Source of the DNA: Escherichia coli
GTDB taxonomy: Bacteria > Pseudomonadota > Gammaproteobacteria > Enterobacterales > Enterobacteriaceae
NCBI RefSeq assembly: GCF_013122565.1
Contig: NZ_CP053258.1
Length of the DNA stretch: 64,000 bases
Direction: 5' to 3' (one strand)
The notes beneath the pieces were generated by a model. That model saw nothing but the letters and a program-made list of their open reading frames with translations. It was not told the DNA's origin and searched no databases. The position numbers and the translations under genes were made by a program. This document shows positions 1,810-33,475 of the stretch, piece by piece. Within the stretch, counting starts at the first letter, position 1. Every line of letters begins with the position of its first letter.

Positions 1810-2499
1810 TTACTCACTCTCTGCCGGTAATACTGGCATCCAGTCAATCGGCGTCTCGCCATGTTGTTCCAGCCACTGATTTGCCAGCACAAAATGGTTA
1901 CAGCCAAAGAATCCACGATGCGCAGAAAGCGGTGACGGATGCGGTGCTTTCAGTACGTGATGGCGTTGCTTATCTATAATCGCCCCTTTCTTTTGCGCAT
2001 GCGATCCCCACAACAAAAACACCACGCCTTCGCGATGCTGGTTAATCAGGCTGATCACTTTATCGGTGAAGGTTTCCCAGCCGAGGCTGGCGTGGGAATG
2101 CGCCTGACCTGCGCGTACCGTCAACACAGTATTGAGTAGCAGAACGCCCTGACGCGCCCAGCTTTCAAGATAACCATGATTAGGGCGGGTGAAGCCCGGA
2201 ATAGTATTTTCCAGCTCTTTATACATATTCAGCAGTGACGGAGGAGTGGCGATTCCGGGGCGAACGGAAAATGCCAGCCCATGCGCCTGTCCCGGTCCGT
2301 GATAAGGATCCTGGCCGAGAATCACCACTTTAACGTCACCCAACTCTGTAAAGCGGAACGCGTTAAAGACATCCTTTTGTGGCGGATAGATAGTGACGCC
2401 GGCCTGCCGCTCGCTGGCGACGGTCTGTAGGGTATTAAGAAAATAGGGTTGTTGCTTCTCTTCAGCCAGCACGTCATGCCAGGTTAATTCGTTTGCCAT
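1810..2499 (-). CDS. ung: Uracil-DNA glycosylase
   Basis: 229-aa [23 protein letters not shown]...; contains the GQDPYH active-site motif; length matches Ung. Confidence 0.97.
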
Positions 2500-2629
2500 C
2501 TCGCTCTCCCGCGAATCTTCAATCCGCCTAGCTTAACTGCTTCTTTCTACAGAACAAAATCATGCTCATTTTTTAGACTTAAACGAGTGCAAAAAAATGT
2601 AAATTGGTAAAATTTCACACCTGCATAAG

Positions 2630-2643
2630 TTGATGTAAAACAA
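2630..2643 (+). promoter_or_regulatory. FNR binding site (distal) in grcA promoter
   Basis: TTGATgtaaAACAA, 53 bp upstream of the proximal site; grcA (yfiD) is known to have FNR sites near -93.5 and -40.5. Confidence 0.6.
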
Positions 2644-2682
2644 TAAAATCCATTTGCGACCATACTTGATGTGTGGTTTTTA

Positions 2683-2696
2683 TTGATTTAAATCAA
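2683..2696 (+). promoter_or_regulatory. FNR binding site (proximal) in grcA promoter
   Basis: Perfect FNR consensus TTGAT-ttaa-ATCAA about 110 bp upstream of the grcA ATG. Confidence 0.7.
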
Positions 2697-2803
2697 AGAT
2701 TCAAGGGTGTTTGAGGAGTATATATACACTCAAGCAACAATGGTTTTACCAATTGGCCGCGACAGGCTGAACAAATCAAATAATTTTGCCGGGGAGGCAT
2801 CAC

Positions 2804-3187
2804 ATGATTACAGGTATCCAGATTACTAAAGCCGCTAACGACGATCTGCTGAACTCTTTCTGGCTGCTGGACAGCGAAAAAGGCGAAGCGCGTTGCATCG
2901 TTGCAAAAGCAGGTTATGCAGAAGATGAAGTGGTTGCAGTAAGCAAACTGGGTGACATTGAATACCGTGAAGTTCCAGTAGAAGTGAAACCAGAAGTTCG
3001 CGTTGAAGGTGGTCAACACCTGAACGTTAACGTTCTGCGTCGTGAAACTCTGGAAGATGCAGTTAAGCATCCGGAAAAATATCCGCAGCTGACCATCCGT
3101 GTATCCGGATATGCAGTTCGCTTTAACTCTCTGACTCCGGAACAGCAGCGCGACGTTATTGCTCGTACCTTTACTGAAAGCCTGTAA
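2804..3187 (+). CDS. grcA: Stress-induced alternate pyruvate formate-lyase subunit (glycyl-radical cofactor)
   Basis: ORF track 2786..3187; ATG at 2804 ([12 protein letters not shown]...) gives 127 aa; C-terminal glycyl-radical motif RVSGYAV. Confidence 0.95.
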
Positions 3188-3209
3188 GGCTTAAGTAGCA
3201 AGTTACTAA

Positions 3210-3240
3210 GCGGAAGAGGGCGACTTCTTCCGCTTTTTTT
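3210..3240. terminator. Bidirectional intrinsic terminator between grcA and eamB
   Basis: Stem gcggaaga/tcttccgc with 8-nt loop followed by a T7 run; A/T-rich on the other side. Confidence 0.7.
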
Positions 3241-3242
3241 CG

Positions 3243-3830
3243 TTAATAGAAAATGCGTACCGCGCAATAGACCAGCAACAGTGCAAGCACGATATTCAAC
3301 TGGCGACCATACTGGCGAAACAATCGCTGAAACAGATGCCCCGCCAGCGCCCAGCACACATTGCCAAACGTCCCAATCATCGCCAGCAAAACGCTGACGC
3401 CAACTACCCAGCTTAACGCCTGTGTTTGCGGCAGAACAAATGTCGACAGTGCCGTAACACCGTACAAAATGATTTTGACGTTCACAAACTGCAAAGCAAA
3501 GCTGGCCCAAAAACTGATTGGTTTTGTCTGAAGCCCGTCTTCCTTTGTTGGACTGGTAGCGATTTTCCACGCCAGCCAGACAATATATGCCGCTCCTGCC
3601 CAACTCAACAGATGCACTGCTGCCGGGTCGATAACAGCCAGTGAAAACGAAATGCCCGCACACAGCAACATGACGATTAAAAATCCCAGACTCATCCCTG
3701 CCAGCACGCGAGTACTCTGACGAAATCCGTGCGTTGTAGCTGAGCTAAGGGCGAGAATATTGTTCGGTCCTGGCGTCATGGCGGTAATCAGGGTGTAAGT
3801 CCAAAAAGCACTTAAAAGGGTCGGTGTCAC
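3243..3830 (-). CDS. eamB: Cysteine/O-acetylserine exporter (LysE/RhtB family)
   Basis: 195-aa hydrophobic ORF MTPTLLSAFWTYTLITAMTPGPNN...; matches EamB (YfiK). Confidence 0.93.
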   Translation of the reverse strand: MTPTLLSAFWTYTLITAMTPGPNNILALSSATTHGFRQSTRVLAGMSLGFLIVMLLCAGISFSLAVIDPAAVHLLSWAGAAYIVWLAWKIATSPTKEDGLQTKPISFWASFALQFVNVKIILYGVTALSTFVLPQTQALSWVVGVSVLLAMIGTFGNVCWALAGHLFQRLFRQYGRQLNIVLALLLVYCAVRIFY

Positions 3831-33452: not shown

Positions 33453-33475
33453 TTGATGTATCTCAAATGCATCTT
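33453..33475 (-). promoter_or_regulatory. NsrR operator in hmp promoter
   Basis: Minus-strand AAGATGCATTTgAGATACATCAA, an 11-1-11 imperfect inverted repeat resembling the NsrR consensus, 27 bp upstream of the hmp ATG. Confidence 0.6.

What the first reader, a model, noticed from the sequence alone, without database searches (positions are those of the whole stretch)
2630..2696. Tandem FNR sites spaced 53 bp apart upstream of grcA
A perfect TTGAT-N4-ATCAA and a second TTGAT-N4-AACAA site centred about 53 bp (five helical turns) apart are visible directly. The unusual dual-site arrangement is known to give both activation and down-modulation by FNR at this promoter.
Basis: partly seen in the sequence, partly recalled or inferred. 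Interest (0 to 1): 0.2.

Follow-up and report, generated by a model that had tools for sequence, protein, structure and literature searches.

The report
Known tandem FNR sites, grcA promoter
These are the two well-studied binding sites for the oxygen sensor FNR in front of the E. coli grcA (yfiD) gene: the near site switches the gene on without oxygen and the far, weaker site turns it back down, so the finding is correct but is textbook-level knowledge.

Summary
TTGATTTAAATCAA (2683-2696, perfect) and TTGATGTAAAACAA (2630-2643, one mismatch) have centres 53 bp apart in the ung/grcA intergenic region of an E. coli chromosome. This region is identical to K-12 MG1655 except for one base outside both sites. 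With the transcription start of record at window 2730, the sites lie at -40.5 and -93.5. These are the published FNR I and FNR II sites of the yfiD promoter (Green et al. 1998; Marshall et al. 2001).

Both sites appear in the FNR ChIP-seq site table of Myers et al. 2013 at coordinates that map base-for-base onto the window. A 2023 study mutated the G and C of FNR II, or deleted the site, on this same sequence. Both changes gave much stronger anaerobic expression.

My additions:
- In 64 Enterobacterales species the pair is present in 62. The spacing is 53 bp in 58 and 52 bp in 4, although the spacer sequence diverges.
- The upstream site keeps the same non-consensus base in 56 of 62.
- Within E. 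coli, polymorphisms avoid both sites.
- Pasteurellaceae have a different tandem layout, 42-44 bp apart.

Verdict: real, correctly interpreted, already known, low interest.

The parts
2630..2643 (.). FNR II: upstream, weaker FNR site TTGATGTAAAACAA, centred at -93.5. It is the down-modulating site.
   Evidence: Sequence. One mismatch to the consensus. Myers Table S6 site 2714632, PatSer 13.87, under an FNR ChIP-seq peak. Own PWM 16.2 bits, rank 3 in the window. Present in 62 of 64 Enterobacterales loci, with the non-consensus A at position 11 in 56 of 62. Invariant in the E. coli variants examined. Point mutations at 2632 and 2641 raise anaerobic expression.
2683..2696 (.). FNR I: perfect-consensus FNR site TTGATTTAAATCAA, centred at -40.5. 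It is the class II activating site.
   Evidence: The only perfect match in the window, against 0.06 expected. Myers Table S6 site 2714579, PatSer 17.25, the highest score in the part of the table read. Stated position -40.5 and 'activated'. The core TTGA...TCAA is invariant in all 62 paired Enterobacterales loci.
2719..2724 (+). Probable -10 hexamer TATATA of the grcA promoter (inferred).
   Evidence: It lies at -11 to -6 from the TSS of record. TATA at 2719-2722 is at least 95% conserved across 65 sequences. There is no -35-like hexamer, and the sigma-70 consensus scan finds no complete promoter, as expected for an activator-dependent promoter.
2730..2730 (+). Transcription start site of record for grcA/yfiD.
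   Evidence: Derived from Park et al. 2013. Their ArcA site 2714524-2714555 has the sequence of window 2720-2751 and is given as -10/+22. This agrees with -40.5 in Myers et al. and with a sigma-70 ChIP-seq peak at 2714546, which is window 2729.
2720..2751 (.). ArcA site predicted from ChIP-seq (Park et al. 2013), overlapping the -10 and TSS.
   Evidence: sequence TGGTAAAACCATTGTTGCTTGAGTGTATATAT is the reverse complement of window 2720-2751. ArcA ChIP peaks were reported at 2714537 and 2714570.
2739..2754 (.). Conserved palindrome AATGGTTTTACCAATT at +10 to +25, resembling a PdhR box (ATTGGTnnnACCAAT, 1 mismatch; the consensus is from my own knowledge).
   Evidence: Strongly conserved block in the 65-sequence alignment. 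PdhR is reported to repress yfiD. The assignment of this element to PdhR is my inference.
2804..3187 (+). grcA (yfiD) coding sequence, 127 aa plus stop: the autonomous glycyl radical cofactor.
   Evidence: ORF. Annotation of matching E. coli records. 571 confirmed relatives in genome contigs.
3208..3235 (+). Intrinsic terminator after grcA.
   Evidence: 12-pair stem with 6 G-C pairs followed by a T run.

Best explanation
This is the grcA (yfiD) promoter of E. coli with its two published FNR operators. Without oxygen, dimeric [4Fe-4S] FNR binds the perfect site FNR I at -40.5. That site overlaps the missing -35 element, and FNR there activates RNA polymerase as a class II activator. When active FNR is abundant (strict anaerobiosis) a second dimer also fills the weaker, one-mismatch site FNR II at -93.5. 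FNR II is five helical turns upstream on the same DNA face, and its occupation lowers promoter output. The promoter is therefore most active at intermediate FNR activity, under microaerobic conditions, when the GrcA protein is needed to rescue oxygen-damaged pyruvate formate-lyase. ArcA and PdhR add further control. What is shown: site identity, positions, in vivo FNR occupancy, FNR-dependent activation, and relief of down-modulation when FNR II is mutated or deleted (all from published data mapped onto this sequence), plus the evolutionary conservation of both sites and their spacing (computed here). What is inferred: that the lower PWM score of FNR II means lower affinity, and that this is why the imperfection is conserved. 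The protein contacts by which upstream FNR represses are still described as unknown.
For: Sequence identity with K-12. Both sites lie under the FNR ChIP-seq peak in Myers Table S6, with scores 17.25 and 13.87. The ChIP peak centre 2714607 corresponds to window 2668, between the two sites. The stated position is -40.5 and yfiD is 'Activated + + +'. The TSS at window 2730 follows from Park et al., and a sigma-70 peak lies at window 2729. Literature statements support down-regulation from -93.5, the microaerobic maximum and FNR (+/-) control. FNR II point mutants and the deletion gave much higher anaerobic output on primers matching this sequence. On synthetic promoters an upstream FNR site represses when it lies between -85 and -95. 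Phylogenetic footprint: 62 of 64 Enterobacterales species have the pair, with spacing of 53 bp in 58 and 52 bp in 4. Over the same loci the distance from FNR I to the ATG ranges from 102.5 to 159.5, and spacer identity is only about 20-60%. Position 11 of FNR II is the non-consensus A in 56 of 62. Polymorphisms within E. coli avoid both sites.
Against: The primary papers (Green 1998, Marshall 2001, Wyborn 2002, Barnard 2003) were not readable here, so the mechanistic details come from titles and secondary summaries. The TSS used by Myers and by Park probably traces to the same primary mapping, and I found no accessible base-resolution dRNA-seq value. ChIP-seq reports one peak for the locus, so separate occupancy of the two sites is not resolved. 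Park et al. score the ArcA effect on yfiD as negative, with a site at -10/+22, whereas older work reported activation through interference with FNR, so the ArcA layer is unsettled. The mechanism of repression from the upstream site is stated to be unknown.
Confidence: 0.95

Rival explanations
1. The upstream site (2630-2643) serves the divergent ung promoter rather than grcA. FNR bound there would activate or repress uracil-DNA glycosylase transcription.
For: ung is divergent, with its start codon at 2499, 137 bp from the centre of FNR II. Myers et al. label the ChIP peak 'yfiD/ung'.
Against: ung is absent from the table of FNR-dependent operons (Table S8: 'ung' 0 occurrences), while yfiD is listed as activated. 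Mutating or deleting FNR II changes grcA promoter output on fragments that lack ung. The 53-bp register to FNR I is conserved, whereas the sequence toward ung diverges. No sigma-70-like promoter was detected on either strand in the region.
Confidence: 0.03
2. The upstream element is mainly an operator for another protein (ArcA or IHF), and the resemblance to an FNR site is secondary. Down-modulation would come from that protein or from DNA bending.
For: Both predicted FNR sites overlap IHF ChIP-chip enrichment. ArcA ChIP peaks fall in this intergenic region. ArcA is said to act at yfiD by disrupting FNR binding. The N4 spacer and the flanks of FNR II (2626-2652) are more conserved than FNR recognition alone requires.
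Against: The ArcA site predicted from ChIP-seq is at -10/+22, not at -93.5. The published mutations that relieve repression hit exactly the G and C that FNR reads in each half-site. The 1998 title attributes the effect to the AR1 face of FNR. Synthetic tandem FNR promoters reproduce repression from -85 to -95.
Confidence: 0.07
3. The second site is a chance near-match in AT-rich intergenic DNA with no function.
For: One-mismatch matches do occur elsewhere in the window: 8 in total, 2.1 expected.
Against: Conserved in 62 of 64 Enterobacterales species at a fixed 52-53 bp spacing despite a diverged spacer. Invariant within E. coli while neighbouring bases vary. Mutational evidence.
Confidence: 0.01

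Closest known systems
E. coli K-12 yfiD (grcA) promoter with FNR I (-40.5) and FNR II (-93.5) (Green, Baldwin & Richardson 1998; Marshall et al. 2001)
   Same: It is the same locus. The sequence is identical from ung to grcA except for one base at window 2623. Both sites, the spacing, the -10 and the TSS are the same.
   Different: Nothing functional. The window comes from a non-K-12 E. coli lineage: the best matches are 99.8% identical over 501 bp, and most E. coli genomes are 95-99% identical.
Synthetic tandem FNR promoters FF(-n)FF(-41.5) derived from melR (Barnard, Green & Busby 2003)
   Same: A class II FNR site plus a second upstream FNR site. Repression occurs when the upstream site lies between -85 and -95, and -93.5 falls in that zone.
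   Different: Those are engineered promoters with two consensus sites. Here the upstream site is naturally weaker, and the downstream site is at -40.5 rather than -41.5.
Other E. coli promoters with two predicted FNR sites under one ChIP peak (cydA 52 bp apart, ompW 45 bp apart, ydfZ overlapping)
   Same: Two FNR-type sites close together under one ChIP-seq peak. The cydA spacing of 52 bp is almost the same.
   Different: From my own knowledge, the cydA sites mediate repression and sit at different positions relative to the start. yfiD is described as unusual in being an FNR-activated promoter with a second site.
CRP-dependent promoters with tandem sites where upstream CRP represses (CC(-122.5)CC(-61.5), guaB)
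   Same: A CRP/FNR-family activator bound upstream reduces the output of a promoter that is activated from a proximal site.
   Different: For CRP the effect works through AR1 contact with alpha-CTD. For yfiD the same paper states that alpha-CTD is not involved.

Membership tests
Class II FNR-activated promoter | A 14-bp site matching TTGAT-N4-ATCAA | tested here: met
   Perfect match at 2683-2696, the only one in 64 kb. Top PWM score in the window and the top PatSer score in the part of Myers Table S6 that I read.
Class II FNR-activated promoter | Site centred near -41.5 relative to the transcription start, overlapping the -35 region | tested here: met
   The centre at 2689.5 and the TSS of record at 2730 give -40.5. 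A sigma-70 ChIP peak lies at window 2729. The TSS value is taken from published tables and was not remeasured.
Class II FNR-activated promoter | Weak or absent -35 hexamer with a recognisable -10 | tested here: met
   Positions -35 to -30 read AAAGAT, 0 of 6 matches to TTGACA. No complete sigma-70 promoter was found by the scan. The conserved TATA at 2719-2722 is in the right place for a -10.
Class II FNR-activated promoter | FNR occupancy in vivo and FNR-dependent expression | not testable with these tools
   Taken from published data mapped onto the window: an FNR ChIP-seq/ChIP-chip peak at 2714607 and 'yfiD Activated + + +' in Table S8.
Tandem-FNR promoter down-modulated from an upstream site (yfiD type) | A second FNR site upstream, in the -85 to -95 zone, on the same helical face | tested here: met
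   The site at 2630-2643 is centred at -93.5, 53 bp (5.05 turns) upstream of FNR I.
Tandem-FNR promoter down-modulated from an upstream site (yfiD type) | The upstream site is weaker than the activating site, so it fills only at high FNR activity | tested here: inconclusive
   PWM scores are lower for FNR II (13.87 against 17.25; 16.2 against 21.5 bits), and the non-consensus base is conserved in 56 of 62 species. Affinity itself was not measured here.
Tandem-FNR promoter down-modulated from an upstream site (yfiD type) | Removing or mutating the upstream site raises anaerobic expression | not testable with these tools
   Published: yfiD-m (2632 G to T, 2641 C to A) and yfiD-P1 (2670-2747) are much stronger than wild type under strict anaerobiosis. 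The primers were checked against the window sequence.

The most novel reading that the evidence does not exclude
The deliberately weak upstream site and its fixed spacing may form a conserved FNR-dosage (microaerobic band-pass) module. It is kept across Enterobacterales: 62 of 64 species have the pair, 53 bp apart in 58, and 56 of 62 share the same non-consensus base. A re-registered form, with sites at about -89.5 and -47.5 and 42-44 bp apart, seems to exist in Pasteurellaceae. The contacts by which FNR represses from -85 to -95 are still unknown. Natural variants therefore give a comparative handle on that mechanism: the four species with 52-bp spacing, the two Pantoea loci with no detectable FNR II, and the Pasteurellaceae layout.
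Probability: 0.4. Interest if true: 0.3.

Novelty: already known. Interest (0 to 1): 0.07.

Why it matters
The finding adds nothing new about E. coli, because the yfiD/grcA promoter has been a model for dual-site FNR control since 1998. Its use here is as a positive control: a tool-less reading of raw sequence correctly recognised a real, experimentally characterised regulatory architecture at exact coordinates. That supports the published microaerobic tuning model and points to natural variants that could help resolve the unknown repression mechanism.

Tried and rejected
- **Primary papers.** Green 1998, Marshall 2001, Thomason 2015 and Barnard 2003 are not held, so the mechanism rests on titles and secondary summaries.
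- **Independent TSS.** I searched the Cappable-seq supplements for the expected TSS coordinates and found nothing. The held files may be truncated.
- **Frame error.** My first attempt at the GrcA query used the wrong frame because the ATG is at 2804, not 2805. I corrected it.
- **Third TTGAT at 2667-2671.** I considered it as an extra FNR half-site and rejected it. Its right half does not match, its column conservation is low, and it is TCGAT in some E. coli strains.
- **Terminator-like hairpin at 2658-2678.** The scan flagged it. I rejected it because it lies upstream of the TSS, falls in the polymorphic spacer without clear compensatory changes, and such hits are expected by chance (0.9 per region).
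- **ArcA overlapping FNR II.** I considered this as the reason for the extra conservation. The ChIP-seq-predicted ArcA site is at -10/+22 instead.
- **CRP instead of FNR.** I rejected this because the half-sites are TTGAT rather than GTGA, and the locus is an FNR ChIP target.

Full report
**Observation.** The window region 2000-3500 contains the divergent genes ung (minus strand, 1810-2499) and grcA/yfiD (plus strand, 2804-3187). In the 304-bp intergenic region, TTGATGTAAAACAA lies at 2630-2643 and TTGATTTAAATCAA at 2683-2696.

The perfect palindrome TTGAT-N4-ATCAA occurs once in the window against 0.06 expected. With one mismatch allowed there are 8 matches against 2.1 expected, and only these two are neighbours. 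I built a position weight matrix from 61 FNR sites that Myers et al. 2013 found under ChIP-seq peaks, leaving out the yfiD pair. It ranks the proximal site first in the window (21.5 bits) and the distal site third (16.2 bits). Shuffled sequence gave on average 0.15 sites at or above the distal score.

**Source and transferability.** The 501 bases around the sites match 5,425 of 5,426 complete E. coli genomes. An alignment with K-12 MG1655 shows identity from the ung start to the grcA start, apart from one base at window 2623, seven bases upstream of the distal site. Experiments done in K-12 therefore apply to this sequence.

**Mapping to published data.** Table S6 of Myers et al. 2013 (PMC3688515) lists two predicted FNR sites, both marked as lying at an FNR ChIP-seq peak labelled yfiD/ung. 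They are 2714579 TTGATTTAAATCAA (PatSer 17.25, the highest value in the part of the table I read) and 2714632 TTGTTTTACATCAA (13.87).

Park et al. 2013 (PMC3798270) give an ArcA site at 2714524-2714555 with a sequence that is the reverse complement of window 2720-2751. That fixes the mapping as U00096.2 coordinate = 2717275 minus window position. Under this mapping the two Myers sites fall exactly on 2683-2696 and 2630-2643.

Park et al. state that their site spans -10 to +22, so the transcription start of record is window 2730. The two FNR sites are then centred at -40.5 and -93.5. Myers et al. also give -40.5 and classify yfiD as directly FNR-activated. The FNR ChIP peak centre (2714607) maps to window 2668, between the two sites. 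A sigma-70 ChIP-seq peak (2714546) maps to window 2729. I used only the position of that peak, not its aerobic or anaerobic label.

TATATA at 2719-2724 is correctly placed for a -10 element. No -35-like hexamer exists, and the consensus promoter scan finds no complete sigma-70 promoter. That is what an activator-dependent class II promoter looks like.

**Function.**
- Later papers summarise the upstream site as lowering expression even when the activating site is occupied.
- They say the promoter is more active microaerobically than under strict anaerobiosis, citing Marshall et al. 2001.
- They say alpha-CTD is not involved.
- They list yfiD as FNR (+/-), ArcA (+), PdhR (-).
- On synthetic promoters an upstream FNR site represses when placed between -85 and -95, and the exact mechanism is described as unknown.

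A 2023 study (PMC10208419) rebuilt three versions with primers that I could align to the window. The wild type spans about 2620-2747. The mutant has G to T at 2632 and C to A at 2641, one change in each half-site of the distal operator. The deletion spans 2670-2747. Under strict anaerobiosis the wild type was classed as too weak, whereas the mutant gave the strongest signal of all promoters tested and the deletion was also strong.

**New comparative evidence.** A scan of one genome per species with the GrcA protein returned 80 loci, of which 64 are Enterobacterales and 16 Pasteurellaceae.
- Among the Enterobacterales, 62 have two FNR-type sites with at least 8 of 10 core positions. The spacing is 53 bp in 58 and 52 bp in 4. 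Two Pantoea loci show only the proximal site.
- The distance from the proximal site to the start codon varies from 102.5 to 159.5 bp across the same loci, so indels are tolerated nearby but not between the sites.
- In a 65-sequence alignment, identity to the window is at least 95% at the core positions of both sites and at TATA 2719-2722, but only about 20-60% across most of the spacer.
- The distal site keeps the non-consensus A at position 11 in 56 of 62 loci, and only 4 have the consensus T. This fits selection for a weaker site. One caveat is that I selected sites by a score threshold.
- Within E. coli, an 81-base query covering both sites is only 90-95% identical in about 1,985 genomes. 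Representative variants show the differences clustered at 2653-2676 and 2573-2590, while both sites and their spacing are unchanged.

**Rivals.**
- *Regulation of ung by the distal site.* This is not supported. ung is absent from the FNR-dependent operon table, and the effect of the site is seen on fragments without ung.
- *A primary role for ArcA or IHF at the distal site.* This cannot be fully excluded as an overlay, because IHF enrichment overlaps the locus and ArcA is reported to interfere with FNR there. However, the predicted ArcA site is at the start site, and the relieving mutations hit the bases that FNR reads.
- *Chance.* This is excluded by the conservation.

**Limits.** I could not read the primary papers or obtain a base-resolution start site from an independent dataset. 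The start used by the two genome-scale studies probably derives from the same original mapping.

**Verdict.** The finding is real, exactly located and correctly interpreted. It is the published yfiD/grcA dual-FNR promoter, so it is already known and of low interest.

Noticed in passing
window 33453-33466: TTGATGTATCTCAA is the second-best FNR PWM hit in the window (17.1 bits). It lies in the hmp/glyA intergenic region, about 30 bp upstream of the hmp start codon. Myers Table S6 lists the same sequence (2683817, glyA/hmp) as a predicted site without a ChIP-seq peak. From my own knowledge, this is the known FNR operator that represses hmp.
   Followed up: partly
window 2739-2754 (and 2720-2751): The palindrome AATGGTTTTACCAATT at +10 to +25 in the grcA 5' UTR is highly conserved. 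It resembles a PdhR box and overlaps the ArcA site that Park et al. predicted at -10/+22. Park et al. score the ArcA effect on yfiD as negative, whereas older literature reports activation, so the ArcA role looks unsettled.
   Followed up: partly
L045, L051-L053, L055-L057, L059, L064, L069, L071, L076, L078-L081 (upstream of grcA, about 200 nt before position 1501): Pasteurellaceae grcA promoters differ. They have a sigma-70-like -35 (TTGAAA-type) and an extended -10 (TGnTAAAAT). Relative to a start inferred only from that -10, FNR-type sites lie at about -89.5 (strong) and -47.5 (variable, 7-10 of 10 core positions), 42-44 bp apart. In three loci the sites are at -100.5 and -57.5. The upstream site again falls in or near the -85 to -95 zone.
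   Followed up: partly
window 2573-2590 and 2653-2676: There are two polymorphism hot spots within E. coli in the ung/grcA intergenic region. About 1,985 genomes are only 90-95% identical over 2622-2702. The changes flank the FNR sites but avoid them.
   Followed up: yes
window 2528-2547 and 2555-2560: Moderately to strongly conserved blocks (GCTTAACTGCTTCTTTC and CAAAAT) lie 30-60 bp upstream of the ung start codon across Enterobacterales. They may be the ung promoter or 5' UTR. I did not identify them.
   Followed up: no
L050 and L065 (Pantoea sp. IMH, Pantoea sp. WMus005): These are the only two of 64 Enterobacterales loci where no upstream FNR II-type site (at least 8 of 10) was found 45-60 bp from the proximal site. 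They may be natural losses of the down-modulating operator.
   Followed up: no
window 2658-2678: A terminator-like hairpin (8 pairs followed by a T run) sits in the spacer between the two FNR sites, upstream of the TSS. It is polymorphic without clear compensatory changes and is most likely chance.
   Followed up: partly
window 2601-2607: AATTGGT, a PdhR-type half-site, lies about 125 bp upstream of the TSS with moderate conservation. No matching second half is present.
   Followed up: no
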